Positions 2,784 through 55,258 of a DNA stretch of 55,630 bases are shown here, piece after piece (the stretch's first letter is position 1; the number at the start of each line of letters is the position of its first letter). Position numbers and translations under genes: made by a program. The stretch is taken from IMG/VR virus record IMGVR_UViG_3300045988_032220; one strand, written 5' to 3'. Source of the stretch: a virus. The notes under the pieces are model-generated. The model was given only the letters and a program-made list of their open reading frames with translations. It was not told where the DNA came from and ran no database searches.

Positions 2784-2803
2784 TGTTACCTCCTTGCAAA
2801 AAA

Positions 2804-4137: not shown

Positions 4138-4206
4138 CGGGATACGGTTTCCTTTGGCTGTTGCACTGCTTTCGGCAAATGCCTACTCGTCTCGCAGATC
4201 AGCCGG

Positions 4207-4327
4207 AGCGGGGCGAACACCGTAGGTGTTGTTGTAGTTCCAGTTGTCGTTGGAACCATCAGACTTGACGTTCCAGACGTTGTTGCTGTTGTTGGTGTTC
4301 GGAGAGCGCAGCCACCATTCGGCAGCG
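4207..4327 (-). repeat. DGR template repeat TR (121 bp)
   Basis: Coding-strand translation AAEWWLRSPNTNNSNNVWNVKSDGSNDNWNYNNTYGVRPA with 11 AAC codons. It is the invariant partner of VR1 and VR2 and is not in a credible ORF. Confidence 0.93.
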
Positions 4328-4368
4328 TCAGAATATAAACCGTGCCCCTATTGCAAAACAGTTTCCTG

Positions 4369-5353: not shown

Positions 5354-5356
5354 GTG

Positions 5357-5779
5357 TTAGTCCTCCTTTGGCTTTTCGCCCTGAATGATCCGGTACTCAG
5401 CAGTCAGCGCTTCCGCCGGGGCTTTCTTCGCCCAGATACAAATTTTCCCGGTCTGCGTTTCGCAGGTCTGGCAAACACCGCAGTCCATCGCGGCGGTCAA
5501 ACTGTTCGGCGACAAGATGATGTCTGCGCGATCGGTCGCCGTCACATCTGCGGCAGTGATGTCGTAACGCATGGGGTATTCCTCCCACGTTTCATCCTCC
5601 ACCCAGCCGTCTGCCTTGATCGTGACGGGTACAGAGGACAGCCGGTCAACCTTTGCCCTGTCCATTTCCTGCATTGCTTCCAGCGTAGCATTGGACAGCT
5701 CACTTGCCAGCCCTGCCGCATACTTCTTTGCTTCCTGCGCTACCAGTTTCAGGTGGGTTACGAGTGCGATAATATTCAT
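5357..5779 (-). CDS. Hypothetical structural-region protein (140 aa)
   Basis: ORF in the late operon between fibre-like genes. Confidence 0.6.
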   Translation of the reverse strand: MNIIALVTHLKLVAQEAKKYAAGLASELSNATLEAMQEMDRAKVDRLSSVPVTIKADGWVEDETWEEYPMRYDITAADVTATDRADIILSPNSLTAAMDCGVCQTCETQTGKICIWAKKAPAEALTAEYRIIQGEKPKED

Positions 5780-7115: not shown

Positions 7116-8549
7116 TTAACCCAGCGTGACCTTCAGCACTGCGGCGTTGCCATAGGCAACAGCAGGCTCAAAGACCCACACATTGTAGTCCTTGGCGGCA
7201 TAGCCGTTCGCACCCTCAACGGGAACAGCGGACTTGACAAAGGTGCTGGTGACATCTGCGTTCATTGCGGTCTCGTTGATGACCTTGGTCACGCCCTTTG
7301 CGGTCGCAATGCAGGCAATCGCCACACGCTGCGTACCGGCAGGCACGTTGATGGTCAGCGTACCGGCAGCATATGCCTTGCCAGTCTTGCCCAGTGCGCG
7401 GATGGCCGCACTGTCCAGAGCAGGCTTGCTGGTGGCCGCGCCGTAGAACACGTTGCGGAACGGGGTGTAGGCGGCGGTGTCTTTGGTCTTGCTACCTGCC
7501 GCAATGGCAACCGCCGGGCTGGATGCAGCACCGAGATTGTCCTTTGCGGTCACGCCTGCGCCGTGGGTGGCGGTGACGCGGTACTTCAGGCTGGACACGG
7601 CATTGTCGCCGCCTGCATCGCCGATGATGAAGCCAGCGCCGCCGTTGTTGTCAGAGCCAGCGGTCAGGGATGCAGCATCCACGGATGCAACCTGCGTGGT
7701 GGCGGCGTTGGTGATGCGCTCCACTTTGAAGTTGGTCGCTACAACACCGGTCGCCGGGCCGTACTGGTAGGAACCAGCATTCAGCGTTGCCCCGGAGTAG
7801 GCTGCAGCGGCCACCTTGGTGCCCGCCTCAACCGCACCGGCACCGGTCAGGGTAAAGGTTCCGATGGACGGCTGTGCGGTGATGGTGGGCTGCAGGCGCT
7901 TGGAGAAGATTTCGGTCAGGGCATCCATGACGCTCTTGCCCTTGGTCTGGAAAGTCGCCGTGCCGTTCTGGCTCTTAGTCAGGTTGCCGACCTGCGTATA
8001 GCCACCGGCCAGCGTGATGTTGTCCCGCAGGATCACCTTGTCGGCATCCACGCTGCCGGTCATTGCTGCCCATGCGGAACCATCATAGAAGTATGCGGAC
8101 TGCTCATAGGTAGAGCCGTCCACGGTGGTGGTCACGACAAAGACATCGCCCTTCTTGGGCTTTGCGTCCTTGTTCTGGTCGAAGTAGCCGGAGATCACGC
8201 TGTCGTCGGATGCGGACAGGTCAGCTTTGGTCGCGGCGTATACCGTGCCACCCAGACCACCAGAAACAGCTTCCAGCTGTTCCTTGGTGGCATAGCCGGA
8301 AAGGTCAACGGTGGTATCATCCAGCAGGACGACCGCACCTTCGACCTTTGCGTAGATGTCATAGTGCTGCGTCTTGTCATTCATGACCAGATACATCACA
8401 TTGTCCTGCGCTTCATCGACCGTCGGAATGGCTTCGGCCTTGCGGAAAGTGGCATGGCCCGCCTTGGAAATAGACTTGAGCCATTCCTGCTGCAGGCGTG
8501 CAGCGGTGGATTTGAGAGCTTCGAGGGTTACAAACTTGTTGTCTGCCAT
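7116..8549 (-). CDS. Tail-fibre / receptor-binding-like protein (477 aa)
   Basis: Long Ala/Gly/Thr-rich beta protein directly downstream of the collar-type fibre gene. Confidence 0.7.
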   Translation of the reverse strand: MADNKFVTLEALKSTAARLQQEWLKSISKAGHATFRKAEAIPTVDEAQDNVMYLVMNDKTQHYDIYAKVEGAVVLLDDTTVDLSGYATKEQLEAVSGGLGGTVYAATKADLSASDDSVISGYFDQNKDAKPKKGDVFVVTTTVDGSTYEQSAYFYDGSAWAAMTGSVDADKVILRDNITLAGGYTQVGNLTKSQNGTATFQTKGKSVMDALTEIFSKRLQPTITAQPSIGTFTLTGAGAVEAGTKVAAAAYSGATLNAGSYQYGPATGVVATNFKVERITNAATTQVASVDAASLTAGSDNNGGAGFIIGDAGGDNAVSSLKYRVTATHGAGVTAKDNLGAASSPAVAIAAGSKTKDTAAYTPFRNVFYGAATSKPALDSAAIRALGKTGKAYAAGTLTINVPAGTQRVAIACIATAKGVTKVINETAMNADVTSTFVKSAVPVEGANGYAAKDYNVWVFEPAVAYGNAAVLKVTLG

Positions 8550-11629: not shown

Positions 11630-11948
11630 TGTTTATCACCACCTTCGGTCGAATGTTCCCCTGCTGGCTTCGGCTGGTTTCATAGCTTACTTCCAGCACT
11701 TGTGCCCTCGGTTCGTACTTCTTTGTTTTTCGGATGATCTCTGCCGTGAGCTTCGCTTCGGCAGCTTCGGCTGGCAGGCTCAAGCAGTCCATGTTCAGGC
11801 CAAACTCCCGGTCAAGTGCCTGTTCACCTTCTCGGCTCCCATAAAGCGTCTTGAGACAGTTATATACATCCCGTTCTTCTGTGCTTTCGGACGGATTGAT
11901 CTCTACATCAATATCGCCCAGTATCAGCTTTTCCAGCTCACCGCTCAT
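11622..11948 (-). CDS. Baseplate wedge protein, gp25/GpW-like
   Basis: Start ATG at 11948 overlaps the upstream stop (ACATGA) and follows AAGGAG. About 108 aa, at the position before baseplate J. Confidence 0.7.
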   Translation of the reverse strand: MSGELEKLILGDIDVEINPSESTEERDVYNCLKTLYGSREGEQALDREFGLNMDCLSLPAEAAEAKLTAEIIRKTKKYEPRAQVLEVSYETSRSQQGNIRPKVVINIV

Positions 11949-31562: not shown

Positions 31563-31612
31563 AATATTACCCCTGTTTATTTTTATATATAAAATATAGC
31601 ATTTTCGCCGAA

Positions 31613-31745
31613 CCCTGTACAGTGTCAATTTGCACAAAGACACGGTACAGGGTTTTGTGCAAAACGTAGAAAGCACGGTACAGGGCTTGACAGTTCACCC
31701 TGTACCGTGCTACAGTAGTGCCACAGCAGGCGACACGGTACAGGG
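31613..31745. promoter_or_regulatory. Operator array: five copies of 12-bp site CACGGTACAGGG
   Basis: Direct copies at 31641-31652, 31674-31685 and 31734-31745. Inverted copies at 31698-31709 (perfect) and 31613-31624 (1 mismatch). Copies 31674 and 31698 form a perfect inverted repeat bracketing a -35 box. Confidence 0.65.
31687..31716 (+). promoter_or_regulatory. Candidate sigma-A promoter of the plus-strand cargo operon
   Basis: TTGACA (31687-31692), 18-nt spacer, TACAGT (31711-31716). The spacer contains an operator copy. Confidence 0.5.
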
Positions 31746-31780
31746 TTGCAAGCTGAATAAGCCGAAAGGAGAAAAGCCGC

Positions 31781-31888
31781 ATGAATAAGCACTTTTTCGA
31801 GCTGCCGAAAGCCGTCAAGCGTGCCGTTTGGGCCGCGCTCATGGCTGAATGGGCAAAGAAAAAAGCCGCCAACCGCACCACCGGTTGA
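31781..31888 (+). CDS. Small ORF (35 aa), first ORF after the promoter
   Basis: RBS AAAGGAGAAAAGCCGC-ATG. Hand-translated MNKHFFELPKAVKRAVWAALMAEWAKKKAANRTTG. Confidence 0.3.
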   Translation: MNKHFFELPKAVKRAVWAALMAEWAKKKAANRTTG

Positions 31889-32048
31889 CAGCTCGCAAGA
31901 TGGGATTTGAACAGCTCATCTTGCAATGATTTTACCAGTTTCCGCCGGTAAAGTCAAGCGGACACTTTGCAAGGGCTGCACCGCTCAACAAAGCAACCCA
32001 TGCCCACCACCCCGCCGGGGTGAATCAAAAACAAAGGAGATCGAGAAC

Positions 32049-32453
32049 ATGACCGCATTCGACAAGAAAGTAAACCAGATCGCCGCCCGCCACGGCTGGA
32101 ACATTTCCCCCGTGTCCGGCTGGTACATCCCCGCCTATTCCATCGTTCCGATGGATCGCAAAGAGCGCGACCAAATCACCGCCGCGCTGAACCGGTGCAA
32201 ATCGTTTCACGTTGACGTTCTGCAGGCTTTCAGCGCTTGCGCATGGACTTGCACAATCTTGATCCGCGACCGGGCCGAATGGGAAGCACTGCAGGAGCAC
32301 CAGCACACCGCCGATCTGATCCGCAACGCCTTTATTGAAGCGTACCACTTCAACGGCCACGACAGCCGCGGCGCGGTGAATGCCGCACGCCAGAAAGCCG
32401 CCGATCTCGACGCGCTGGACATCTTCAACGAGATTTACAGCATTCCGGCATGA
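32049..32453 (+). CDS. Hypothetical protein (134 aa)
   Basis: ATG at 32049 preceded by AAAGGAG. Same frame as ORF 31926..32453. Confidence 0.6.
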   Translation: MTAFDKKVNQIAARHGWNISPVSGWYIPAYSIVPMDRKERDQITAALNRCKSFHVDVLQAFSACAWTCTILIRDRAEWEALQEHQHTADLIRNAFIEAYHFNGHDSRGAVNAARQKAADLDALDIFNEIYSIPA

Positions 32454-32461
32454 ACGCCGCC

Positions 32462-32526
32462 CCGGATACCTTGACGGGCCGCACCACGAAAAGCGACCCG
32501 ATCCCACCACCCCGGAAGCATCCGGG
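32462..32526 (+). repeat. Intergenic repeat, type A copy 1 (core plus second hairpin)
   Basis: CCGGATACCTTGACGGGCCGCACCACGAAAAGCGACCCGATCCCA followed by CCCGGAAGCATCCGGG. Confidence 0.85.
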
Positions 32527-32571
32527 AGAAAGCCGAACACACACCACGAAAGCAAAAAGGAGATATGAACC

Positions 32572-32910
32572 ATGAAACGAATCATCACCGCCGCCGCTCT
32601 GGCCGCTGCCCTTTTGGCAGCCGCGCCCCGCGCCGCTGCTGTCTGCCCCTACACCGTCGGCCCGCTGGGCCGGTACATCGCCCCGGCCATTGTGCAGGGC
32701 ATGACCGCCACCGACGACGGGAACGCCGTTGAAGTCTGGTGCACCGACGCGCTGGACGGTGACGACTGGTTTTTTACCGTGGACAACAAAACCGAATTGA
32801 AGATTTACAGCCGTGTAAATCTGGTGATCGACGCCAACGGCACCCCGGACGACTACAGCGACGACAAAGTTATTGACGCCCTGTTTTGCAACGACTGCAC
32901 CGAAGATTGA
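32572..32910 (+). CDS. Secreted or lipoprotein-like small protein (112 aa)
   Basis: N-terminal signal-like sequence MKRIITAAALAAALLAAAPRAAAVC. Confidence 0.6.
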   Translation: MKRIITAAALAAALLAAAPRAAAVCPYTVGPLGRYIAPAIVQGMTATDDGNAVEVWCTDALDGDDWFFTVDNKTELKIYSRVNLVIDANGTPDDYSDDKVIDALFCNDCTED

Positions 32911-32924
32911 AAGGAGCGCACGAA

Positions 32925-33086
32925 ATGCATTACCAGATTGTTTACATGAAGCGGGGTTTTCCCCTCACCACATGGGCCAGCAGCGCCGAACGAGCGCACC
33001 AGCTGGCCGAACAGCTCCGCCGGGTTGGCTATTCCGTGGACGTGTGGCAGCACACCGAAAAGGGTTCACGGAAAACCGATCTTTGA
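32925..33086 (+). CDS. Hypothetical protein (53 aa)
   Basis: ATG preceded by GAAAGGAGCGCACGAA. Confidence 0.5.
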   Translation: MHYQIVYMKRGFPLTTWASSAERAHQLAEQLRRVGYSVDVWQHTEKGSRKTDL

Positions 33087-33091
33087 CCCCG

Positions 33092-33154
33092 CCGGACACC
33101 TTGACGGGCCGCACCGTAAAGCGACCCGATCCCACCACCCCGGAAACATCCGGG
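33092..33154 (+). repeat. Intergenic repeat, type A copy 2
   Basis: CCGGACACCTTGACGGGCCGCACCGTAAAGCGACCCGATCCCA followed by CCCGGAAACATCCGGG. Confidence 0.85.
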
Positions 33155-33193
33155 AGAAAGACGAACACGAGCCACGAACCGAAAGGAACGACC

Positions 33194-33448
33194 ATGAAGA
33201 AACTGAACGTTTACAGCGTGTATCTGGACGACGGGAAAGACGTTTTCCGCGTCACCGTCCCCGCCGCCAGCAAGAAAGACGCCGCCGAATACGTGCGGGG
33301 CAACGGCGACGTTGTGGCCATCAAACCCGCCGACCTGCAGGACATCGACCTTGACGCACTGGCCGACACGCTCAAGCGTGCCCAGTGGGGCCAGATGGAA
33401 ATTGACATCATCACCCGCGCCCTTGCCGCTTGCGGTCTGGATCGCTGA
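33194..33448 (+). CDS. Hypothetical protein (84 aa)
   Basis: ATG preceded by GAAAGGAACGACC. Confidence 0.6.
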   Translation: MKKLNVYSVYLDDGKDVFRVTVPAASKKDAAEYVRGNGDVVAIKPADLQDIDLDALADTLKRAQWGQMEIDIITRALAACGLDR

Positions 33449-33466
33449 ACGAAAGGAGCACGAACC

Positions 33467-33646
33467 ATGTTGACCAAATTAACCCCGATCGAGACCGCCA
33501 GCGAAATCATTTACCAGCGGCACATCATCCAGAAGTTGCGCCGGGAAATGAAATACACCCGCCGCCCCGATCTTGTACAAAACGGGATCGACCATGCCCG
33601 GCTTGCTCTGAAATGTGCATACCGCGGCTATATGTACACGATTTGA
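33467..33646 (+). CDS. Hypothetical protein (59 aa)
   Basis: Hand-translated MLTKLTPIETASEIIYQRHIIQKLRREMKYTRRPDLVQNGIDHARLALKCAYRGYMYTI with RBS GAAAGGAG. Confidence 0.45.
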   Translation: MLTKLTPIETASEIIYQRHIIQKLRREMKYTRRPDLVQNGIDHARLALKCAYRGYMYTI

Positions 33647-33652
33647 CCCCCG

Positions 33653-33714
33653 CCGGATACCTTGACGGGCCGCACCGTAAAGCGACCCGATCCCATCCAC
33701 CCGGCCCCGCCGGG
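33653..33714 (+). repeat. Intergenic repeat, type A copy 3
   Basis: CCGGATACCTTGACGGGCCGCACCGTAAAGCGACCCGATCCCA followed by CCCGGCCCCGCCGGG. Confidence 0.85.
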
Positions 33715-33750
33715 AAGAACCACAACAAAAAGCGAAAGGAAGTATTTACC

Positions 33751-34668
33751 ATGACGAACAATCAAATCATCCGCAACGAAGCCGCCCGGCTTGACCCCGC
33801 CACCCTGCACGCCATCGCCACCGCGCACCACACCCCGGACGAGATCGCCGCCATTGCCGCCGCTTGCAAGACCACCGACGAGAACGGCAACGAACAGCCC
33901 GCCACCGTGGCCGATGTCGAAATCATGCTTGCAGCCGACGAGCTGCACACGTTCGACCACTGGAAGAAAGAGGGTAAGAGCGTCAAAAAAGGCGAAAAGC
34001 ATCTTGTTTGCTGCTACCTCTGGAAGTACACCACGAAGCCCAGCAAAGAGCAGCGAGAAAAAGCAGCGGCAGAGGGTAAGGAAGCGGCCCCCGATCCGCA
34101 TTACTACCCCACGAAATCGCACTTGTTCAGCTGCTTACAGGTTGAAAGCAGCAAGCCCGCCCCGGCTGGCCGGTTTGGATCGACCGCCGCAATTATTGAG
34201 TATAACAAGAAGCTGGCAGCCGAACGGAAAGCGGCCAAAGCCGCAAAGGAAGCCGCCGAAAAGGCAAAGGCCGAAGCCCCCGCCCCGGTCATCATCGAAG
34301 AACACCACGAGTTGCCGGAACTGGTGCACGTCGATCCGCTGCCCACGAAAAAGGCCGCGGCAAAGAAGAAGCCCGCCGGGCCGAACATGAAAGAACTGAA
34401 AAACGCTTTCGTCAAGAACTATTCCCGCCTGTACCGGACCGACGACGACCACGAAAGCGGCGAGTTTTGCGACGCCGTGGACAAGTTCGACGAGTTGAGC
34501 GCCAACGATCCCCAGTTTGCCGCCACCGTCCAGAAGTTCAATAAATACATGGGCGACCTTATCAGCAGCGACCGCGAAGCCGCCGCGTTTGTAATGGCCC
34601 TTGACGATTTGGAAAAGGCAAAGATCCCCGAAATGGTTCCCAGTGTGCAGCAGCTTTGTTTTGCATAA
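33751..34668 (+). CDS. ArdC-N-like (ssDNA-binding/antirestriction-type) domain protein with Lys/Ala-rich linker (305 aa)
   Basis: LHTFDHWKKEGKSVKKGEKHLV resembles the TF-x-QW-x3-G-x-V-x-KGEK segment of ArdC-N/DUF1738. This is recollection only. Confidence 0.35.
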   Translation: MTNNQIIRNEAARLDPATLHAIATAHHTPDEIAAIAAACKTTDENGNEQPATVADVEIMLAADELHTFDHWKKEGKSVKKGEKHLVCCYLWKYTTKPSKEQREKAAAEGKEAAPDPHYYPTKSHLFSCLQVESSKPAPAGRFGSTAAIIEYNKKLAAERKAAKAAKEAAEKAKAEAPAPVIIEEHHELPELVHVDPLPTKKAAAKKKPAGPNMKELKNAFVKNYSRLYRTDDDHESGEFCDAVDKFDELSANDPQFAATVQKFNKYMGDLISSDREAAAFVMALDDLEKAKIPEMVPSVQQLCFA

Positions 34669-34675
34669 CACAAAA

Positions 34676-34742
34676 CGGACACCCCAGCAGGGCCGCACCG
34701 CTCAAAGCGGCCCCGCCCCACTTCCCACCGGCACCCCGCCGG
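34676..34742 (+). repeat. Intergenic repeat, type B copy 1
   Basis: CGGACACCCCAGCAGGGCCGCACCGCTCAAAGCGGCCCCGCCCCA with a perfect 7-bp stem GGGCCGC/GCGGCCC, followed by CCGGCACCCCGCCGG. Confidence 0.85.
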
Positions 34743-34788
34743 GGGATCGTCACGAAACACGAAAAACGAAAACAGGAGGCTTGAATTT

Positions 34789-35274
34789 ATGTCTTGCATG
34801 ATGCTTTCCCCCGCCCACATCGCCACCGTTGCGCACGGTCTGGCGTATCTGCTCAATCAATCCGAAATGTGCCAGCTTTCCGCCGCCGACGAATTGCGCG
34901 ACGCTCTGGGCGCTTGCAGATACCCGCACGATTTTCTGTATGACGACCGCCGAATCTACCCCGTTCTGTACCGGCACAACGAAGCCGCGTATGAAGGGCG
35001 CTATAAGGCAGAGCCGGACGAAACCGACGAAGTGCCAGCCATGCCGGACAATGTGCCGCACCTGCTGCACCGTCTGGACTACAACAAGCATTATTTTCTC
35101 GATGCTGATTTCTTCAAGTTCCTGAAGCTGCTTGACTGCTACATTTACCAGTGCGAAGAACAGGCCACGGCAGACACGAATTTACAGAAAGCGCTTGTAA
35201 AGACTTCAAACCACTTGTACGCATTCGCCGCCCAGCAGAATGCAGCGTACAACGCCGCGCCGTGGTGCATCTGA
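34789..35274 (+). CDS. Hypothetical protein (161 aa)
   Basis: RBS CAGGAGG. ORF is in operon orientation. Confidence 0.65.
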   Translation: MSCMMLSPAHIATVAHGLAYLLNQSEMCQLSAADELRDALGACRYPHDFLYDDRRIYPVLYRHNEAAYEGRYKAEPDETDEVPAMPDNVPHLLHRLDYNKHYFLDADFFKFLKLLDCYIYQCEEQATADTNLQKALVKTSNHLYAFAAQQNAAYNAAPWCI

Positions 35275-35280
35275 TCCGCG

Positions 35281-35333
35281 CCGGATACCTTGACGGGCCG
35301 CACCGTAAAGCGACCCGATCCCAGCCGAAAGGC
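35281..35333 (+). repeat. Intergenic repeat, type A copy 4
   Basis: CCGGATACCTTGACGGGCCGCACCGTAAAGCGACCCGATCCCA followed by GCCGAAAGGC. Confidence 0.85.
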
Positions 35334-35366
35334 ACAACACGAAACACGAAAAGGAGCAAACGAATT

Positions 35367-36287
35367 ATGACAACATACTATCCCATCAACGAAAATCTGG
35401 CCCGTGCTTCCCACGATATGCGCAGCATGAGCACCTACCCGGACGGCTACGCAACCAGAGAATACCGTGCCAGCGTGGACAAAGCCGCCGCTCTGGTCGA
35501 AGAAAAGAAGCAGAAAGTCAGCCCATACTATCACGAAAAGCTGGACGCGCTGCTTGACAGCTACGCCCGCCGCCTTGCACAGTGGACGGACGACCACAAC
35601 CGGAACGGTGCAAGCTGCCCCTCTGTGCTGGTGTGCGGTGCTGGTAACTTCCCGGTGCGAAAGAAGCAGAAGCAGAACGCCCGCGAGGATACGCTTTGGC
35701 ACGAATATGAAGAAATCGAAGCCATCTTGACGAAAATCAAGGCGGTTGGCACCGGCCCCGTTGATCTGGCCGACCCCCACGCCCGCGAACTGCTCACGGA
35801 TCAGCTGAACAAAGAGCAAGACCTGCTCGAATACTGCAAGGGTGCCAATGCCTATTACCGGAAGCACAAAACCTTGCGCGGCTATTCCAACATGAGCGAC
35901 GCGGCAGCCGATGCTCTCACCAACCCGGACGCCTTTTCAATGAGCCTGTACCGCAAGCCCTACGGTGATTTTGAGTTGACCAGCATCCGCGGCAAGATCA
36001 AGCGGATTCAGGCCCGCCTTGACGAACTCGACAAAGCGCAAGCCGCCGCTGCATCCGGCCCCGTTGAAGATCAGCACGACGGCTACACCTACCGCGAGAA
36101 CAACGAAATCATGCGCGTGCAATTCATCTTTCCCGGAAAGCCGGACGAAGAAACCCGCGCCATGCTCAAAGAGAACGGTTTCCGGTGGGCACCCAGTCAG
36201 GGCGCTTGGCAGCGCCAGCTTACCGCAAACGCCAAATATGCAGCGCACCGCGTCATGGAGTTTCTGGACGGCAACGAAAACGAATAA
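35367..36287 (+). CDS. DUF3560-like protein (306 aa)
   Basis: The C-terminal segment MRVQFIFPGKPDEETRAMLKENGFRWAPSQGAWQRQL matches the remembered DUF3560 signature (KP..R..LK..GFRW). That family is common on conjugative elements. Confidence 0.6.
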   Translation: MTTYYPINENLARASHDMRSMSTYPDGYATREYRASVDKAAALVEEKKQKVSPYYHEKLDALLDSYARRLAQWTDDHNRNGASCPSVLVCGAGNFPVRKKQKQNAREDTLWHEYEEIEAILTKIKAVGTGPVDLADPHARELLTDQLNKEQDLLEYCKGANAYYRKHKTLRGYSNMSDAAADALTNPDAFSMSLYRKPYGDFELTSIRGKIKRIQARLDELDKAQAAAASGPVEDQHDGYTYRENNEIMRVQFIFPGKPDEETRAMLKENGFRWAPSQGAWQRQLTANAKYAAHRVMEFLDGNENE

Positions 36288-36293
36288 TAAAAG

Positions 36294-36361
36294 CGGACAC
36301 CCCAGCAGGGCCGCACCGATTCAAAGCGGCCCCGCCCCATCTTCCCGGCATAAATGTCGGG
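36294..36361 (+). repeat. Intergenic repeat, type B copy 2
   Basis: CGGACACCCCAGCAGGGCCGCACCGATTCAAAGCGGCCCCGCCCCA followed by CCCGGCATAAATGTCGGG. Confidence 0.85.
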
Positions 36362-36393
36362 AACATCACGAAAACGAAAAGGAGCTATGAACC

Positions 36394-36651
36394 ATGACAG
36401 CCAAACAGCAAAGCACCGAATCCGGCGGCGGTCTGCGCACCGTCACCCTCACCGCTGACCAGTGGAACACCCTGTATTTCTACCTTCTCACTTCCACGAA
36501 GTACCGCAACGGCGAAATTGAAGCGTGGGAAAGGCTGGCCCTTGAAACGAACGAGGACGGTTCCCCAAAGTTCATCCACGCCGCCGACAATGCGCGTTAT
36601 CTCCGGGATCAGGAAAAGACGCTGCACGAAATCGCACAAAGCATCTGCTGA
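36394..36651 (+). CDS. Hypothetical protein (85 aa)
   Basis: RBS AAAAGGAG. Confidence 0.6.
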   Translation: MTAKQQSTESGGGLRTVTLTADQWNTLYFYLLTSTKYRNGEIEAWERLALETNEDGSPKFIHAADNARYLRDQEKTLHEIAQSIC

Positions 36652-36753
36652 CAACCCGACCCGCCGGGGAAAATAGGAGAATTGATTTCATTTTGTAGTC
36701 GGTTGAATGCCGCCCCACTGCCCGCCGGGGTGAATCACGAAAGGACGAAACGA

Positions 36754-36942
36754 ATGTACTACTTCATTTACTGCAAAGGCCCCAACGAAAAGCGCTTCAC
36801 GCTTTGCAATCCATGGAAAGGCACACGCGGCATGGGCAAAGTATATGCGCCGCGCTTCCTCAAGGATCAAGCCGACTATGCCGTTGCATGGATGGCCGAG
36901 CACAACCCCGGCTTTATCTTCCAGCGCCGCCCGGCACGCTGA
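36754..36942 (+). CDS. Hypothetical protein (62 aa)
   Basis: ATG preceded by CACGAAAGGACGAAACGA. Confidence 0.5.
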   Translation: MYYFIYCKGPNEKRFTLCNPWKGTRGMGKVYAPRFLKDQADYAVAWMAEHNPGFIFQRRPAR

Positions 36943-36973
36943 ACATCACCACCACGAAAAGGAGCAACGAACC

Positions 36974-37291
36974 ATGACAACCAACGAACGCTTTCTCTCA
37001 GTCCTGCATAGGATCACTTCCTGCCGCCACTTGGCCACCGTCAACATAACGATCTGGAACGGGCGCATTGAAGTCCGGCATACCGTTTTCGATGAAATGT
37101 ACATCCTGCGCAGCTTTCCCCTGCCCAACACCCACAACGAATATTGCGCCTACATGGCGGTTGCCTGCCGGTGTCTGTCCGACAAGCTGCTTTCGTGGGC
37201 AAGCGAGTACGACCACGGCAACGACGTTCTGAACAAGCAGTACGACACCGTGAACAAAGCCTTTCGCAAGCGCTTAGAGGAACAAGAATGA
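36974..37291 (+). CDS. Hypothetical protein (105 aa)
   Basis: ATG preceded by AAAAGGAGCAACGAACC. Confidence 0.6.
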   Translation: MTTNERFLSVLHRITSCRHLATVNITIWNGRIEVRHTVFDEMYILRSFPLPNTHNEYCAYMAVACRCLSDKLLSWASEYDHGNDVLNKQYDTVNKAFRKRLEEQE

Positions 37292-37514
37292 CCCGCGCCC
37301 CGGTTCCATGCCGGGGCATCTTGTGATATACTTTCACTAACGAAATTGGACTTTTTCATCACGAAAAGTTCAATTCCAACAACGAATTTGCAAAAAAGGG
37401 GGCATTTTTACGAACGAAGTCGAATTTTTTGCGCCTTGGCGTCTGGTTGCCAGTTTTTCCGACGGCACCCGCGCCACGTTCGACGGTCTGACCGAGGAGC
37501 AAGCCCACGCCGCA

Positions 37515-37772
37515 ATGGAAGCTGCCCAGACCGAGCACGGCGACATTGGCTATTGGAACCGTGTCACGGATGTAAACTATGAGGACGGCCAGTATTGCGG
37601 CACCCTGCAGGAACCGCCCACGGTTCATGTTGTGGATTTTTCCGGGTATGACGGGCCGCTGGACGAAAACGGCTTTCCTGTTGGCCTGCCGAACGAAATC
37701 GCCGAGTACATGAAGCAGCACGGCGAACCGCCCACCGTTCCAAAAATCATCATCAAGAAAAACGAACCATAA
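37515..37772 (+). CDS. Hypothetical protein (85 aa from ATG; frame open from 37341 with protein-like sequence, so the true start may be upstream and non-ATG)
   Basis: The upstream in-frame sequence FAPWRLVASFSDGTRATFDGLTEEQAHAA looks coding. AAAAAAGGGGG lies at 37392-37402. Confidence 0.55.
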   Translation: MEAAQTEHGDIGYWNRVTDVNYEDGQYCGTLQEPPTVHVVDFSGYDGPLDENGFPVGLPNEIAEYMKQHGEPPTVPKIIIKKNEP

Positions 37773-37778
37773 ACGCAC

Positions 37779-37821
37779 GAAATCCCTCGACGGAATTACC
37801 CGCCGGGGGATTTCTGTTTTT
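37779..37821 (+). terminator. Intrinsic terminator ending the plus-strand operon
   Basis: GAAATCCC (37779-37786) pairs with GGGATTTC (37807-37814), followed by TGTTTTT. Confidence 0.5.
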
Positions 37822-38020
37822 GACGATTCGCAAGTTTGTTTTTCTGAGCGGTTCGGAGGTTTCGCGGAAGCCCTTCATTCTGCACGCGCATAAATTCGCT
37901 TCATTCTCTACCCTATAGGGTCTTTCCGGCACGAATTAAGAACGCCGAAATTCGATTCTAAGACCCCGTTTTCGTAGATTTTCTATCAAAAATCAGGCAT
38001 AAGCCATTTTACGGTCCCTT

Positions 38021-38521
38021 TTAATCGCGCGCGTCATACGCGCGTGAGAGCAGTTCTTCGACCATCGGGACTTCATCCAGCATGGAACCCAGAACGACCA
38101 GCGCGAACTTTTCCCACCGCTGGGCTGTGATCTCTGTTTTTCTCAGTTCGCGGGCTATGGTTTTCCAGCCTTTTTGTAACGACGGATCACTGTAGACATA
38201 CCGCCCGCACAGGATCGTTTTGTAACGACTGTTCAGCCGGTCTAATTGCCCCCGGATCGTGGTCTGATCCGCACGGAGAACATCCTGCCGAACACGAAGT
38301 TCATTTTCCCGGCGCTGGCACTCCACATCATCGGCCAGTTTCACAGCCAGCGACGCGGTACTATCTCCCGGCGTGCTGCCGTGCGGCATACCGTCCATAG
38401 CAATGCCCTTGATGGGATTGTAGCGGTCTCGCAGTTCTGCCAGCTCAATGTTGACATCATCAAGCTGTGCTTCAATCCCGCCAAAGTAGCGCAAAATCAT
38501 TTTCGTTTCTTCTGCCTGCAT
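38021..38521 (-). CDS. Sigma-70 region-4-like / ArpU-RinA-type putative late transcription regulator (166 aa)
   Basis: The C-terminal segment ILCGRYVYSDPSLQKGWKTIARELRKTEITAQRWEKFALVVL resembles a region-4 HTH. It is the last gene of the early operon. Confidence 0.45.
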   Translation of the reverse strand: MQAEETKMILRYFGGIEAQLDDVNIELAELRDRYNPIKGIAMDGMPHGSTPGDSTASLAVKLADDVECQRRENELRVRQDVLRADQTTIRGQLDRLNSRYKTILCGRYVYSDPSLQKGWKTIARELRKTEITAQRWEKFALVVLGSMLDEVPMVEELLSRAYDARD

Positions 38522-49848: not shown

Positions 49849-50214
49849 ACGGCACCCTCTGCCCCTGCCGGTGCGCCAAATTATGGACAAACGCACCGGC
49901 TTCCATGAATACCTGCAGCAAAGCGGCGCGGGCGGGGTGCGGCCCCGCAGGCGGCTTTTCCTTGCGTCGTTTCAAGGATCAGCCCCGCGCCATATAAAAG
50001 CCGCCGCGCTGACGCGGTGCGTGGCGGCTCATTTACACCTTAGATGTTTTTGTATCAGCAGCACCCTTGGTCTTTTCGTAACGTTCACAGTTCGTGTCAT
50101 ATCCACTGCACGGCGCACACCGCTTGTGGGTGATCTCGAACGTATGCCTGCACTGTTCATTTTTGTGCAGGGCTTTTTCGGTGGGACTTCTGTTATGTAT
50201 CTTCATTTACAGCC

Positions 50215-50781
50215 TCAAAAAGGAACTTCGTCGTAGTGGGTGGCGATCATATCTGCAAAGTGCAGACACAGGGCTTCCGGGTAGCGGTCATAAACGGCGC
50301 TGAGCGTTCCCCAGTCCTGCTTTCCGCTGTAGGCGCCCATGTGCCAGCGGATCGCCACGATCTCCCGCGCCGTCAGCTTGATATACTGCTGTGCCATAAT
50401 GACGCTTCCTTCTCCGTGGCCCACCAGACCGGCGTCAAAATATTCGTACTCACCGTTTCCCTTATCGCGGTACTGGCCCACCTTGCAATAATCATGCAGG
50501 AGCGCCGCTGCAAGAACTTCATTCCGGTGGCACTTTTTGAAAGCGTGATTTGCCCTGCACAATTCCATTGCCGCCTCTGCCACGCAGACCGAGTGCTCAC
50601 ACAGCCCGCCGGGATGGTTGGAATGGTGCTTGATGCTGGCAGGCTTTTCAAAGAATCCCAAAGCCACCATCTGCTGCCAAAGGTTTTCAGCGCCCGGACG
50701 GTCAGCAAGGCCGCTCTCCGCCCAGAGAACCTCGAACTTTTCTTTCGGCTTCATGTCCTCGTACAGTTTTTCGTTATCCAT
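50215..50781 (-). CDS. HD-domain phosphohydrolase
   Basis: HSNHPGGLCEHS ... LLHDYCK ... GHGEGS motifs. Confidence 0.75.
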   Translation of the reverse strand: MDNEKLYEDMKPKEKFEVLWAESGLADRPGAENLWQQMVALGFFEKPASIKHHSNHPGGLCEHSVCVAEAAMELCRANHAFKKCHRNEVLAAALLHDYCKVGQYRDKGNGEYEYFDAGLVGHGEGSVIMAQQYIKLTAREIVAIRWHMGAYSGKQDWGTLSAVYDRYPEALCLHFADMIATHYDEVPF

Positions 50782-53644: not shown

Positions 53645-55258
53645 ATGGCAAAAAGAAAATTCAACAAGGGCGGCGAGGTTCGGCTGGTCGCCTATTACAG
53701 ATACAGCGGCGGCAGCGGGCAGACTGAGCAATCCATTGAGGGCCAGCGCCGGGACTGCGAGACCTACGCCCGCCTGCACAATATGACCATCCAGAAAGAA
53801 TATGTGGATCGTCACATCAGCGGCAAGACCGATGATCGTGCGGCATTCCAACAAATGATTGCTGACAGCGACAAGGGCGCATTCGATATGGTAATCTGCT
53901 GGAAAACAGACCGCTTCGCCCGGAACCGCTATGATTCTGCCGTGTACAAGAAGCGCCTGCGCGACAACGGTGTTGAGATCGTCTACGCCGCTGAATCCAA
54001 CATTGCCGGTGCGGAAGGTATCATCATTGAGGGCGTGATGGAAGCGCTGGCCGAATACTACTCCGCCGAGCTGGCCGAGAAGATGCGCCGCGGCATGAGG
54101 GAAAGCGCTCTCAAAGGGCAAGCCATCAGCCGTTGCCGCGCCCTTGGCCTGAAAACGGACGAGCGCAAACGGTTCGTCATTGATGAAAAGACCGCACCCA
54201 CTGTGCGCTTTATCTTTGAGCATTACGCCGCCGGGGAATCTGCCATGTCTATTGTTGAACAGCTCAACACTAAAGGACTGCGCACCAGTCAGGGCAACCC
54301 CTTCAACAAGAGCAGCATTCCCCGGATCATCCAGAACGAAGCCTACCGCGGCGTGTATGTCAGTAAATCGTATGACGTGCGCATTGAAGGAGCCATTCCG
54401 GCCATTATCGACAATGAACTTTGGGAGAGGGCACAAACCATGTTGAAATTGAACCGTCAGCTCAAGGCAAAGAATGAACCGAAAGCGGACTATATCCTGT
54501 CCGGCAAGCTTTACTGTTCCTGCGGTTCCCTTATGCGCGGCATGAGCGGGCACAGTGCCACCGGCGAGGTCTACCGCTACTACACCTGCCCCAACAAGGA
54601 CTGCCGCCTGCGGAACATCCCGAAGGACGATCTGGAAGGAAAAGTCATGCAGTCCATCGTGGATCACCTCTTGCAGCCGGAATCTATGGAAGCACTGGCC
54701 GAAGCTATGGTCGAGGTGCAAAAGGCCGACGCTGAAAAGCCCAATGCCGAACGTGTAGCCATCGAACAGAGCCTTGCCGATGTCCGCCGCCGCAGTAAAA
54801 ACATTTTGGACGCCATTGAAAACGGCACCGCCAATGCGCAGCTGTGTGCCCGTCTGGATGATCTGACCGAACAGGAGCAGACCTTGAGCTTCCAGCTTTC
54901 TTCTCTGGAAAAGGAGAAGCCTGTTGTGTTCACAAAAGAGCAGTACCTTTTCCTGCTGGAACAGTTCTTGATGGAGCCGTCCGAGCGCACACCGGAGTAT
55001 GGTCGCCGTCTTGTTAACACTTTCGTAACAAGTATGGTAGTTAGCGACCGTGAACTGGTTATCAATTTTAATGTTTCTGACGAAACCGTTAACAAAAACA
55101 AAAAAACATCCCAGACAAACTTACAAAAAGAAAGTTCGTCTGGGATGCGTCTGGTCCACCTTGCACATCAACAAGCGAACTATTCCCTTTATGCGGCTTC
55201 CGGCTACTTTTCACTGGTTGAACACCAATTTTCGGCCCGTTTGTGGCGCACCGCATAA
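53645..55258 (+). CDS. int: Large serine recombinase (integrase)
   Basis: N-terminal resolvase catalytic region VAYYRYSGGSGQTEQSIEGQRRD. Also a recombinase domain, a zinc ribbon (CSCGS...YYTCPNKDC) and a coiled coil. Confidence 0.9.
   Translation: MAKRKFNKGGEVRLVAYYRYSGGSGQTEQSIEGQRRDCETYARLHNMTIQKEYVDRHISGKTDDRAAFQQMIADSDKGAFDMVICWKTDRFARNRYDSAVYKKRLRDNGVEIVYAAESNIAGAEGIIIEGVMEALAEYYSAELAEKMRRGMRESALKGQAISRCRALGLKTDERKRFVIDEKTAPTVRFIFEHYAAGESAMSIVEQLNTKGLRTSQGNPFNKSSIPRIIQNEAYRGVYVSKSYDVRIEGAIPAIIDNELWERAQTMLKLNRQLKAKNEPKADYILSGKLYCSCGSLMRGMSGHSATGEVYRYYTCPNKDCRLRNIPKDDLEGKVMQSIVDHLLQPESMEALAEAMVEVQKADAEKPNAERVAIEQSLADVRRRSKNILDAIENGTANAQLCARLDDLTEQEQTLSFQLSSLEKEKPVVFTKEQYLFLLEQFLMEPSERTPEYGRRLVNTFVTSMVVSDRELVINFNVSDETVNKNKKTSQTNLQKESSSGMRLVHLAHQQANYSLYAASGYFSLVEHQFSARLWRTA

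What the first reader, a model, noticed from the sequence alone, without database searches (positions are those of the whole stretch)
32455..36365. Six-member family of intergenic hairpin repeats separating the genes of the plus-strand operon (cassette-like organisation)
Right after six stop codons lies a conserved 43-46-nt element. There are four type-A copies (32462, 33092, 33653, 35281) reading CCGGAyACCTTGACGGGCCGCACC(G/ACG)(T)AAAGCGACCCGATCCCA. There are two type-B copies (34676, 36294) reading CGGACACCCCAGCAGGGCCGCACCG(C/A)T(T)CAAAGCGGCCCCGCCCCA. Both types share the core GGGCCGCACC...AAAGCG(A/G)CCC, which folds as a 7-bp stem. The stem is perfect in type B and has one C-A mismatch in type A. 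Each copy is followed by a second small GC hairpin of variable sequence (CCCGGA..TCCGGG, CCCGGC..GCCGGG and similar), then by the next gene's leader. The 10-mer GGGCCGCACC also occurs once on the minus strand, at 49936-49945. The units between repeats are whole genes of about 160-920 bp, so this is not a CRISPR array. No U tracts follow, so they are not classical terminators. Possible roles are RNA processing or stability sites, antiterminator or protein-binding sites, or recombination boundaries of mobile gene cassettes (attC-like).
Basis: seen in the sequence. Interest (0 to 1): 0.65.

Follow-up and report, generated by a model that had tools for sequence, protein, structure and literature searches.

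The report
RAGATH-5 RNA pseudoknots between phage genes
The repeats are seven copies of a catalogued RNA motif of unknown function (RAGATH-5) that sit between the genes of one operon in a Faecalibacterium prophage, fold into a compact knot-like shape, and occupy the same slots that self-cutting RNAs occupy in related phages, so they most likely mark where the long messenger RNA is processed.

Summary
The window is about 97% identical to Faecalibacterium phage FP_Toutatis. Published reviews say the function of RAGATH-5 is unknown.

Three results came from 234 distinct copies found in related phage contigs:
- **Fold.** The motif is more than a hairpin. The 5' CGG pairs with the loop CCG, and two linker pyrimidines covary in parallel register with two purines of the stem's 3' strand (95% complementary). 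That fits an H-type pseudoknot with major-groove base triples.
- **Position.** It begins 6-9 nt after the upstream stop codon and is usually followed by a variable hairpin 0-4 nt after an invariant CCCA.
- **Substitution.** At junctions next to the same gene families, related phages carry a twister-sister or hammerhead ribozyme instead.

Best reading: an intercistronic RNA processing or insulating element. It is not an integron attC site, a terminator or a host REP element. Gene modules do shuffle at these sites. The mechanism is inferred, not shown.

The parts
31687..31716 (+). Promoter-like site (TTGACA, 18 nt, TACAGT with an upstream TG) for the plus-strand operon. It is flanked by operator-like ACGGTACAGGG repeats at 31600-31750.
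   Evidence: (family D13, inverted repeats I3 and I20). This is a consensus match only; function is inferred.
31959..32006 (+). CGG 31959-31961; linker pyrimidines UU 31966-31967; P1 31971-32002; tail CCCA 32003-32006.
   Evidence: Rfam 58.9 bits; own model 64.2 bits; coordinates. It lies about 70 nt after the small ORF 31781-31888, in the leader of the gene that starts at 32049.
32008..32022 (+). Hairpin 2 of copy 1 (CACCCC GCC GGGGUG).
32463..32506 (+). RAGATH-5 copy 2 (type A). Linker CU pairs in register with GA of the stem. Its loop reads ACCA instead of ACCG.
   Evidence: Rfam 66.6 bits. Stop codon at 32451-32453, 9 nt before the CGG.
32511..32526 (+). Hairpin 2 of copy 2 (CCCGGA AGCA UCCGGG).
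33093..33134 (+). RAGATH-5 copy 3 (type A).
   Evidence: Rfam 69.4 bits. Stop codon at 33084-33086.
33139..33154 (+). Hairpin 2 of copy 3 (CCCGGA AACA UCCGGG).
33654..33695 (+). RAGATH-5 copy 4 (type A).
   Evidence: Rfam 66.0 bits. Stop codon at 33644-33646.
33696..33718 (+). Hairpin 2 of copy 4 (core CCCGGC CCC GCCGGG).
34676..34720 (+). RAGATH-5 copy 5 (type B). Linker CC pairs in register with GG of the stem.
   Evidence: Rfam 69.3 bits. Stop codon at 34666-34668.
34723..34746 (+). Hairpin 2 of copy 5.
   Evidence: z = -2.9 for the whole unit.
35282..35323 (+). RAGATH-5 copy 6 (type A).
   Evidence: Rfam 58.0 bits. Stop codon at 35272-35274.
35324..35333 (+). Hairpin 2 of copy 6 (GCC GAAA GGC), starting directly after the CCCA tail.
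36294..36339 (+). RAGATH-5 copy 7 (type B).
   Evidence: Rfam 65.3 bits. Double stop codon at 36285-36290.
36342..36363 (+). Hairpin 2 of copy 7 (contains a G.U pair).
   Evidence: z = -3.4 for the whole unit.
36700..36750 (+). Remnant of an eighth unit. It keeps a tail, hairpin 2 and leader resembling those of copy 1, but has no pseudoknot core.
   Evidence: (family D5: 31997-32040, 33692-33735, 36707-36750) and the sequence. No covariance-model hit.

Best explanation
The repeats are seven copies of the RNA motif RAGATH-5 (Rfam RF02685). They are transcribed as part of the polycistronic mRNA of an accessory operon that runs opposite to its neighbours in a Toutatis-like Faecalibacterium prophage.

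**Fold (supported by covariation).** Each copy folds as an H-type pseudoknot. A 9-10 layer GC-rich stem (P1) carries a loop whose CCG pairs with the CGG at the 5' edge of the motif. The linker between them runs down the major groove of P1. There, two pyrimidines form base triples (C.G-C or U.A-U type) with two purines of the stem's 3' strand. An invariant CCCA tail follows the stem. In most copies a variable hairpin starts 0-4 nt after it.

**Position (shown).** The motif starts 6-9 nt after the stop codon of one cistron. That is just outside the reach of a terminating ribosome. It lies about 40-65 nt before the next start codon.

**Function (inferred).** It acts as intercistronic punctuation, doing the job that twister-sister and hammerhead self-cleaving ribozymes do at equivalent junctions in related phages. 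Most likely it directs scission of the operon transcript. Because the non-ribozyme RAGATH motifs as a group were reported not to cleave in vitro, a host or phage ribonuclease that recognises the fold is more likely than self-cleavage. Scission would leave a pseudoknot at the new 3' end and a hairpin at the new 5' end. Each gene module would then be expressed independently of its neighbours.

**By-product (shown as a pattern).** The repeated 45-70 nt units mark the points at which gene modules are exchanged between phages.
For: **Identity.**
- All 7 copies match RF02685 over the full model at 58-69 bits against a gathering score of 50.
- The window is 96.8% identical to FP_Toutatis across the array.
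- Phage Lelie, at about 82% identity, also has 7 copies after successive genes.

**Fold.**
- The two strongest covariations in the whole motif run in parallel register. Column 13 with 38 gives UA 101, CG 44, 1 other. Column 12 with 37 gives CG 83, UA 62, UG 1.
- Counted as pairs they are 99.6% complementary. 0 of 500 shuffles reach that percentage or the covariation score. The signal collapses when partners are slid by 1-3 columns.
- In a set anchored only on the 3' half, 234 distinct copies give CU/GA 93, UU/AA 65, UC/AG 33 and CC/GG 32, which is 95% complementary.
- The pseudoknot pair between column 5 and column 29 gives CG 211, GC 4, UA 1 and UG 6, against 12 mismatches. The 5' GGA is present in 234 of 235 distinct copies.
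- P1 shows compensatory changes at 5 of its 8 counted pairs.
- Parallel register is what the pseudoknot topology requires of the linker.

**Position.**
- The spacer from stop codon to motif has its mode at 7 nt, and is 6-9 nt at 294 of 473 places, with no 3-nt periodicity.
- Hairpin 2 is present in 117 of 147 distinct tails strongly and in 12 weakly.

**Substitution by ribozymes.**
- Twister-sister (74-87 bits) and hammerhead type II occur inside the same arrays on the same strand.
- After the orthologous upstream gene ending ...AYY[VF]RVA*, the junction holds RAGATH-5 in 2 loci, twister-sister in 6 and hammerhead in 2.
- The identical downstream gene MEIIKQYRDG... is preceded by RAGATH-5 in L096, twister-sister in L050 and hammerhead in L121.
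- Homologues of three window genes (33751, 34789, 35367) are preceded by twister-sister in other phages.

**Literature.** Ribozymes in such positions have been proposed to process polycistronic transcripts (PMC6765202).

**Module shuffling.**
Against: - No RNA-end data exist for these phages, so scission is inferred only from positional equivalence.
- The review PMC6765202 states that the additional RAGATH structures did not cleave in experiments. I could not read the original paper to see how RAGATH-5 itself was tested.
- No candidate nuclease could be identified.
- In one phage group a single copy lies at the end of a gene and just before a strong promoter-like site (L116, L024). There it is a 3' element rather than a spacer between two cistrons of one mRNA.
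- About 12% of copies lack hairpin 2.
- Support for the 3-bp pseudoknot helix rests on few compensatory sequences. Its invariant GG could instead pair with the invariant CC of the tail.
- The sequences are related, so shuffle tests overstate independence. Against that, all four complementary combinations are common, and 16 of 38 orthologous junctions hold more than one.
Confidence: 0.55

Rival explanations
1. Structural roadblock or insulator without cleavage. The triplex-stabilised pseudoknot is a mechanical barrier placed just past the stop codon. It would stop 5'-to-3' machines (RNase J, or ribosomes that fail to terminate or that scan on) or 3'-to-5' exonucleases. That would set the stability of each cistron and uncouple translation of neighbours.
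For: - The motif is a compact H-type pseudoknot with linker-to-stem triples. From general knowledge, this architecture gives frameshift-stimulating and telomerase pseudoknots their mechanical stability.
- Spacing from the stop codon has a sharp mode at 7 nt.
- The phage carries an HD-domain gene at 50215-50781. Its Toutatis counterpart is annotated as a YhaM-like 3'-5' exoribonuclease.
- The non-ribozyme RAGATH motifs were reported not to self-cleave.
Against: - The elements that replace it at equivalent junctions are catalytically intact self-cleaving ribozymes with high model scores. Their only known activity is scission, not blocking.
- The very strong sequence conservation, including an invariant single-stranded CCCA tail, exceeds what a purely mechanical block needs.
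- No known exonuclease-resistant RNA family matches, even at E<=10.
Confidence: 0.18
2. A new class of self-cleaving ribozyme that is inactive under the conditions tried so far, for example because it needs hairpin 2, flanking sequence, low pH for C+ triples, or a cofactor.
For: - It is interchangeable with twister-sister and hammerhead ribozymes at equivalent junctions.
- It has many invariant unpaired nucleotides and a pseudoknotted core, as small ribozymes do.
- Conservation ends exactly at a C-A step, 0-4 nt before a hairpin.
- The review notes that some of these motifs may be ribozymes that were not active in the conditions tested.
Against: - The non-ribozyme RAGATH motifs as a group were reported not to cleave, and the functions of 33 of them were still called unknown in 2024.
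- It has no resemblance to any ribozyme model in Rfam.
- The Rfam type label 'ribozyme' is not evidence of activity.
Confidence: 0.12
3. Binding site for a phage or host RNA-binding protein that regulates translation or stability of the adjacent cistrons. This would be an operator repeated before each gene, comparable to the pseudoknot in the phage T4 gene 32 leader.
For: - High sequence conservation together with a conserved fold.
- The element sits upstream of an unstructured A/C-rich leader and ribosome-binding site.
- One copy lies in the 5' leader of the first long gene.
Against: - No partner protein was identified.
- The distance to the start codon is loose, 38-99 nt for the 10th-90th percentile, while the distance to the upstream stop is tight.
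- Self-cleaving ribozymes replace it at equivalent junctions, which is hard to reconcile with a protein operator.
- In one group of phage contigs a single copy occurs, in a different gene context.
Confidence: 0.1
4. A DNA-level recombination site that bounds mobile gene cassettes, attC-like or a hot spot for homologous exchange, as its primary function.
For: - Gene units between copies are shuffled. The same downstream gene family follows up to 6 different upstream gene families.
- Identity between the window and Toutatis resumes exactly at copy 2 (32460). Identity with L064 resumes at copy 4 (33644).
Against: - No attC core sites and no tyrosine integrase, only a large serine recombinase.
- The conserved features are RNA-like: G.U pairs, a pseudoknot and parallel-register triples on the coding strand.
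- Position is tied to stop codons.
- Unrelated ribozyme sequences occupy equivalent slots, so the slot rather than the sequence is conserved. Exchange at repeats is better seen as a consequence.
Confidence: 0.04

Closest known systems
RAGATH-5 RNA motif (Rfam RF02685; from the 2015 search for RNAs near genes associated with twister and hammerhead ribozymes)
   Same: It is this family. All 7 copies give full-length matches above the curated threshold. The genomic neighbourhood is the same as that of twister-sister and hammerhead ribozymes.
   Different: Nothing differs in kind. The covariance model's structure line shows only the hairpin. The pseudoknot, the two parallel-register triples, the stop-codon spacing and hairpin 2 are additions from this analysis. 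I could not read the original description to check whether any of them was already drawn.
Twister-sister and type II hammerhead self-cleaving ribozymes in phage operons
   Same: They occupy the same slot: 0-5 nt after a stop codon, before an A/C-rich leader and ribosome-binding site, on the same strand, in the same arrays, and next to the same gene families.
   Different: There is no sequence or structure similarity. Self-cleavage is not shown for RAGATH-5 and is reported negative for the non-ribozyme RAGATH motifs as a group.
RNase III processing sites between the early genes of phage T7 (general knowledge)
   Same: A repeated, conserved RNA structure between successive cistrons of a phage operon, proposed to cut the polycistronic mRNA and leave stabilising structures at the new ends.
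   Different: T7 sites are long, roughly 20-bp irregular hairpins cut by RNase III. Here the stem has 9-10 layers and is pseudoknotted, so it is too short for RNase III. The nuclease, if any, is unknown.
H-type pseudoknots with major-groove triples, such as the SAM-II riboswitch, the telomerase RNA pseudoknot and luteovirus frameshifting pseudoknots (general knowledge)
   Same: The same topology is inferred. Loop 1 lies in the deep groove of stem 2 and makes pyrimidine-purine-pyrimidine triples. An A-rich loop 3 is present. The motif sits 6-9 nt downstream of the codon in the ribosomal A site.
   Different: No match to any of those families. There is no slippery sequence, no consistent reading frame and no conserved extension, so it is not a recoding signal. 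Seven copies per operon make a ligand sensor unlikely.
Promoter-early stem-loop (PeSL) units that flank shuffled genes in T4-type phages (general knowledge)
   Same: Short repeated regulatory units at the borders of small accessory genes in a hyperplastic region. Gene modules are exchanged at them.
   Different: PeSLs are promoter-plus-terminator DNA units. These are internal to one transcript and are RNA pseudoknots.
Integron attC sites
   Same: Imperfect repeats directly after the stop codons of successive, co-oriented small genes.
   Different: No core sites, no IntI integrase, RNA-type covariation, and replaceable by ribozymes.

Membership tests
RAGATH-5 (Rfam RF02685) | Score at or above the curated gathering threshold (50 bits) with the family covariance model | tested here: met
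   Seven matches at 58.0-69.4 bits, E from 2e-09 to 5.4e-07 for the whole window.
RAGATH-5 (Rfam RF02685) | Full-length match to the consensus (model positions 1-53), including the conserved CGGA, GCACCG, AAAGC and CCCCA blocks | tested here: met
   All seven alignments run 1-53 of 53.
RAGATH-5 (Rfam RF02685) | Intergenic location in neighbourhoods shared with twister or hammerhead-type ribozymes | tested here: met
   Twister-sister and hammerhead II occur in the same arrays of related phage contigs, next to the same gene families.
Self-cleaving ribozyme (any known class) | Match to a known ribozyme model (hammerhead, twister, twister-sister, pistol, hatchet, HDV, hairpin and others) | tested here: not met
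   Scanning one copy with flanks against all Rfam families at E<=10 returns only RAGATH-5.
Self-cleaving ribozyme (any known class) | Site-specific self-scission of the transcript | not testable with these tools
   The literature reports that the extra RAGATH structures did not cleave in experiments and that their functions are unknown (PMC6765202; PMC11061315).
H-type pseudoknot with major-groove triples (structural class) | Hairpin-loop nucleotides pair with a strand outside the hairpin, supported by compensatory change | tested here: met
   CGG pairs with CCG. The variable pair gives CG 211, GC 4, UA 1 and UG 6 against 12 mismatches. The other two pairs are invariant. Support is modest.
H-type pseudoknot with major-groove triples (structural class) | Linker nucleotides covary with stem purines in parallel register | tested here: met
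   99.6% complementary; 0 of 500 shuffles reach that percentage or the covariation score; lost on sliding. 223 of 234 distinct copies are complementary at both positions. The antiparallel register fails for the two classes CU/GA and UC/AG, which total 126 of 234 copies (counts).
Integron attC site | Core sites RYYYAAC ... GTTRRRY at the ends of the repeat | tested here: not met
   No GTTRRRY within any of the seven units. One chance RYYYAAC.
Integron attC site | Adjacent IntI-type tyrosine integrase and attI | tested here: not met
   The only recombinase is a large serine recombinase at 53645-55258. The Toutatis annotation shows none near the array.
Intrinsic terminator | GC-rich hairpin followed by a U tract | tested here: not met
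   No + strand terminator-like site coincides with any copy. The sequences downstream are A/C-rich.
REP/BIME-like host repeats | Dispersed through host chromosomal intergenic regions, independent of phage | tested here: not met
   A scan of one genome per species finds the motif only in Faecalibacterium, Gemmiger and related Oscillospiraceae or Clostridiales records, plus one 3.9-kb contig binned to Muribaculaceae. In most of these records it occurs as clusters of 2-9 copies within 8 kb. It is abundant in viral contigs.
Recoding signal (-1 frameshift or stop-codon readthrough stimulator) | Pseudoknot 5-9 nt downstream of the recoding site | tested here: met
   Spacer mode 7 nt; 6-9 nt at 294 of 473 places.
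Recoding signal (-1 frameshift or stop-codon readthrough stimulator) | Slippery sequence or a conserved in-frame extension beyond the stop | tested here: not met
   Spacers show no 3-nt periodicity. Extensions in the window are 0, 5, 6, 31, 35 and 201 codons in different frames of the motif. The sequences before the stops are unrelated.
tRNA-like element or RNase P substrate | Helix of about 12 stacked pairs ending in an unpaired NCCA | tested here: inconclusive
   CCCA is near-invariant directly after the outermost pair, and the P1 and pseudoknot helices would stack to 12-13 layers. However, ARAGORN finds no tRNA in the window, and tRNA genes do not substitute for the motif in related arrays. 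Cleavage by RNase P cannot be tested here.
Type III toxin-antitoxin RNA repeats (ToxI-like) | Head-to-tail tandem repeats of a pseudoknot-forming unit next to an endoribonuclease toxin gene | tested here: not met
   The window copies start about 500-1630 nt apart and are separated by one or two genes. No toxin-like gene appears among the operon proteins.

The most novel reading that the evidence does not exclude
RAGATH-5 is a previously unrecognised kind of mRNA punctuation mark. It would be a triplex-stabilised pseudoknot whose stacked helices end in an invariant NCCA-like tail. Either a cellular enzyme cuts it (RNase P acting on a tRNA acceptor-arm mimic is the most concrete candidate), or it is a new self-cleaving ribozyme class that was missed in vitro. 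In both cases phages would use it interchangeably with twister-sister and hammerhead ribozymes to insulate shuffled gene cassettes from one another.
Probability: 0.25. Interest if true: 0.8.

Novelty: already known. Interest (0 to 1): 0.5.

Why it matters
The biological role of the many self-cleaving ribozymes and RAGATH motifs found near phage genes is a recognised open question (PMC6765202).

This locus offers a tractable test case. A cultivable host-phage pair exists (F. prausnitzii with Toutatis or Lelie). One operon carries seven copies of a motif of unknown function. Related phages carry a proven ribozyme at equivalent junctions.

If RAGATH-5 directs scission, it would show that phages use different RNA devices interchangeably to punctuate accessory-gene operons. 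It would also explain how freely shuffled gene modules keep context-independent expression.

The inferred pseudoknot with base triples gives concrete mutations to test. If confirmed, it would refine the family's structural model.

Tried and rejected
- **Other Rfam families.** Ribozymes, riboswitch pseudoknots and exonuclease-resistant RNAs were scanned over one copy at E<=10. None matched.
- **Alternative closing helix.** RNAfold predicts GGAY pairing with RYCC for type A copies. It performs no better than shuffles, with A.C mismatches in 93 of 116 sequences.
- **Antiparallel pairing of the two linker pyrimidines.** This fails for the CU/GA and UC/AG classes, 126 of 234 copies (counts).
- **HDV-like fold.** No complement to the would-be P2 strand exists downstream (my own reading).
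- **tRNA punctuation.** There are no tRNAs in the window and none inside related arrays. It is kept only as a lead because of the CCCA tail.
- **Recoding signal.** No frame consistency and no slippery site.
- **attC site, terminator, REP element, ToxI-like repeat.** See the membership tests.
- **Does the motif travel with the upstream or the downstream gene?** Subtype is about equally associated with both: conditional entropy 0.73 against 0.89 bits, with shuffled controls at 1.39 and 1.35. This was not informative.
- **The original 2015 paper.** It could not be retrieved. No open paper mentions 'RAGATH-5' by name. Papers on Toutatis do not discuss the repeats.
- **Not used.** The protein homology search, structure prediction and metagenome scan were not used, because the question concerned an RNA element.

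Full report
**1. The observation**

The shared 10-mer GGGCCGCACC occurs seven times exactly. Within one mismatch it occurs 18 times against 5.85 +/- 2.25 expected.

A seventh, more diverged copy lies at 31958-32013. The minus-strand 10-mer at 49936 is not a copy: a covariance-model search of the whole window at E<=0.1 returns only the seven plus-strand copies. Each of the six original copies begins 5-9 nt after a stop codon. Each is followed by a variable GC hairpin and no U tract.

**2. What the element is**

A scan against Rfam places all seven copies in family RF02685, RAGATH-5. The matches are full length, 58.0-69.4 bits against a gathering score of 50. No other family matches a copy, even at E<=10.

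RAGATH motifs came from a 2015 search for conserved RNAs near genes associated with twister and hammerhead ribozymes. I could not retrieve that paper. No open paper mentions RAGATH-5 by name. A 2019 review states that the additional structures from that search 'did not cleave in experiments' and that their functions are unknown (PMC6765202). A 2024 paper still counts 33 RAGATH motifs as having unknown function (PMC11061315). Rfam's type label 'ribozyme' for this family is therefore not evidence of catalysis.

**3. Where the element sits**

- The window is 96.8% identical to Faecalibacterium phage FP_Toutatis over 32460-38200. The operon proteins match Toutatis-derived PHROG families end to end.
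- In Toutatis the array lies in gp36-gp48. These 13 co-oriented genes run opposite to the flanking replication and structural modules. They sit between the Q-like antiterminator gene and the small terminase gene.
- In the window the operon has its own promoter-like site (31687-31716), set among operator-like repeats. A 35-codon ORF follows, and then copy 1 lies in the leader of the gene at 32049.
- Closely spaced gene pairs (32910/32925 and 33448/33467) have no element between them. The copies therefore delimit units of one or two genes.
- The operon encodes small proteins of unknown function. One has a weak ArdC-N (anti-restriction) match that falls below Pfam's gathering score (21.2 against 22.6 bits). 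One belongs to a PHROG family annotated as primase.
- The prophage's only recombinase is a large serine recombinase.

**4. Relatives**

Phage Lelie, about 82% identical, also has seven copies after successive genes. Pattern scans of viral contigs, followed by a covariance model built from 15 copies, gave 143, 55 and 276 matches in three searches.

To avoid ascertainment bias on the 5' half, I re-collected copies with patterns anchored only on the 3' half. This gave 234 distinct copies at 494 places. In a scan of one genome per species, the motif appears only in Faecalibacterium species, Gemmiger gallinarum and related Oscillospiraceae or Clostridiales assemblies, plus one 3.9-kb contig binned to Muribaculaceae. 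In most of these records it occurs as phage-like clusters.

**5. Structure**

The Rfam structure line shows only the hairpin P1. Mutual information over 146 distinct copies shows that the two strongest covariations in the motif are not in P1. They link two pyrimidines of the 5' single strand, seven and eight nucleotides after the CGG, to two purines of P1's 3' strand.

| Column pair | Counts |
|---|---|
| 12 with 37 | CG 83, UA 62, UG 1 |
| 13 with 38 | UA 101, CG 44, 1 other |

The register is parallel: 12 goes with 37 and 13 with 38. An ordinary helix is therefore excluded, and the antiparallel alternative fails for 126 of 234 copies (counts). Counted as pairs they are 99.6% complementary. 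No shuffle out of 500 reaches that percentage or the covariation score, and the signal vanishes when partners are slid. In the unbiased set the four complementary classes are CU/GA 93, UU/AA 65, UC/AG 33 and CC/GG 32.

Position 37 is also Watson-Crick paired within P1 (C-G 82, U-A 57). The three positions therefore change together as C.G-C and U.A-U, the classic major-groove triples. At the next layer the P1 'pair' is a C.A mismatch in most copies, while the linker U complements the A.

Separately, the invariant 5' CGG can pair with the invariant loop CCG. The one variable pair gives CG 211, GC 4, UA 1 and UG 6 against 12 mismatches. Together these features define an H-type pseudoknot whose first loop must run down the deep groove of P1, parallel to P1's 3' strand. 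That is exactly the register observed, so the two lines of evidence agree. The A-rich end of the hairpin loop (AAA, invariant) is in the position of loop 3.

G.U pairs occur on the coding strand. This feature, like the triples, makes sense only for RNA of that strand.

A near-invariant CCCA follows the outermost P1 pair, and conservation stops after its A. The fold does not explain it. RNAfold proposes a GGAY/RYCC closing helix for some copies, but this has no covariation support. Pairing of the invariant GG with the tail CC cannot be excluded.

**6. Position relative to genes**

Over 473 places with a callable upstream ORF, the distance from the stop codon to the first pseudoknot nucleotide has its mode at 7 nt. 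It is 6-9 nt at 294 places, with no 3-nt periodicity. The distance to the next start codon is loose, with a median of 52 nt and a 10th-90th percentile range of 38-99 nt.

Hairpin 2 is strong in 117 and weak in 12 of 147 distinct tails. It varies by compensating changes and starts 0-4 nt after the CCCA. There is no slippery sequence and no consistent reading frame through the motif. The geometry resembles that of a frameshift or readthrough stimulator, but the motif is not a recoding signal. The simplest reading is that the fold must stay intact while a ribosome terminates just upstream.

**7. The key comparative result**

In related contigs the same arrays contain twister-sister ribozymes (74-87 bits) and type II hammerheads on the same strand. 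One contig has four twister-sisters and one RAGATH-5. These ribozymes start 0-5 nt after a stop codon and precede the same kind of A/C-rich leader.

Clustering the flanking proteins shows substitution at orthologous junctions:
- The upstream gene ending ...AYY[VF]RVA* is followed by RAGATH-5 in 2 loci, twister-sister in 6 and hammerhead in 2.
- An identical downstream gene and leader (MEIIKQYRDG...) is preceded by RAGATH-5 in L096, twister-sister in L050 and hammerhead in L121.
- Homologues of the window genes at 33751, 34789 and 35367 are preceded by twister-sister in other phages.
- The gene-family pair U14 to D1 holds RAGATH-5 in four loci and twister-sister in one.

The slot is therefore conserved while the device in it changes. 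Because the only known activity of the substitutes is self-scission, the slot most likely serves scission of the operon transcript. This idea has already been raised for bacterial hammerhead and twister ribozymes. It remains an inference, because no RNA ends were available.

**8. Mechanism proposed**

What is shown or well supported:
- family identity;
- the pseudoknot and triple covariation;
- stop-codon spacing;
- hairpin 2;
- substitution by ribozymes;
- module shuffling.

What is inferred:
- The element directs a cut, more likely by a nuclease that recognises the fold than by itself, given the negative in vitro reports.
- A cut near the CCCA would leave the pseudoknot as a 3' cap on the upstream message. 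The hairpin would then lie within four nucleotides of the new 5' end of the downstream message. From general knowledge, this arrangement stabilises bacterial mRNAs. It also parallels the hairpins that hammerhead cleavage leaves at both new ends.
- A more speculative lead: P1 and the pseudoknot helix would stack to 12-13 layers ending in an unpaired NCCA, like a tRNA acceptor arm. That would suit RNase P. However, no tRNA detector recognises the motif, and tRNAs never replace it in related arrays.

**9. Cassette-like organisation**

The same downstream gene family follows up to six different upstream families. Nucleotide identity between the window and Toutatis is lost over 32105-32459 and resumes exactly at copy 2. 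Identity with contig L064 resumes at 33644, the stop codon before copy 4. A remnant of an eighth unit, lacking the pseudoknot, lies at 36700-36750.

The evidence argues against an integron-like mechanism: there are no core sites and no IntI, and the conservation is of RNA type. It favours ordinary recombination between repeated units. An RNA insulator at each border would make shuffled modules function in any context. That is a rationale, not a result. The motif subtype is not tied more to the downstream than to the upstream gene.

**10. Limits**

- The sequences are related, so shuffle statistics overstate independence. Against this, all four complementary classes are common, and 16 of 38 orthologous junctions carry more than one class.
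- ORF calls were mechanical.
- In one phage group a single copy lies at the end of a gene and just before a strong promoter-like site. There the element may act as a 3' end element.
- I could not check whether the original authors had already drawn the pseudoknot.

**11. Verdict**

The finding is real and is a rediscovery of a catalogued RNA family whose function is still unknown. It is not attC, REP, CRISPR or a terminator. The analysis adds a specific structural model and junction-level evidence that the motif is interchangeable with self-cleaving ribozymes. That makes the processing or insulator hypothesis directly testable in a cultivable phage-host system.

Noticed in passing
window 36700-36750: The 3' half of a repeat unit (tail, hairpin 2 and leader, resembling copy 1) is present without the pseudoknot core. 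It looks like a decayed or recombined eighth unit in the 102-nt gap between the genes ending at 36651 and starting at 36754.
   Followed up: partly
window 31600-31750: Four operator-like copies of ACGGTACAGGG, in direct and inverted orientation, surround a TTGACA-18-TACAGT promoter-like site, with divergent promoter-like sites on the minus strand. This is probably the regulatory switch of the accessory operon. A 35-codon ORF (31781-31888) and a hairpin (31897-31926) precede copy 1.
   Followed up: partly
window 50215-50781 (minus strand): An HD-domain protein gene. The Toutatis counterpart (gp11) is annotated as a YhaM-like 3'-5' exoribonuclease. A phage-borne RNA exonuclease could be relevant to RNA elements that protect transcript ends.
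   Followed up: partly
L054 (IMGVR_UViG_3300010163_001721), minus strand, 1171-4476: An array of four twister-sister ribozymes after successive genes, with a single RAGATH-5 copy (1536-1597) among them. It mirrors the window's array.
   Followed up: partly
L053 about 7235-7275, L062 about 11770-11810; also L037 and L058: A recurrent sequence, CCGCCGCCCAGGGTAAAGGGCAGAAAG, follows some RAGATH-5 copies just before the next start codon. It may be another small structured element.
   Followed up: no
L116 (oriented) 1575-1720; L024 (oriented) 5231-5375: In one large group of phage contigs a single RAGATH-5 copy lies at the end of a small gene. A short hairpin, an A/T palindrome and a strong promoter-like site (TTGCAA, spacer, TGNTATAAT-like) follow. 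Here the motif can sit at the 3' end of a transcription unit.
   Followed up: partly
window 34666-35274: Reading through the TAA at 34666-34668 would stay in frame through copy 5 and into the next gene (201 codons). The other copies show no such continuity, so this is probably chance.
   Followed up: yes
window 32105-32459: The gene between copies 1 and 2 has no nucleotide-level match in FP_Toutatis, while both flanks are about 97% identical. This points to a recent allele replacement whose right-hand breakpoint is at the start of copy 2.
   Followed up: partly
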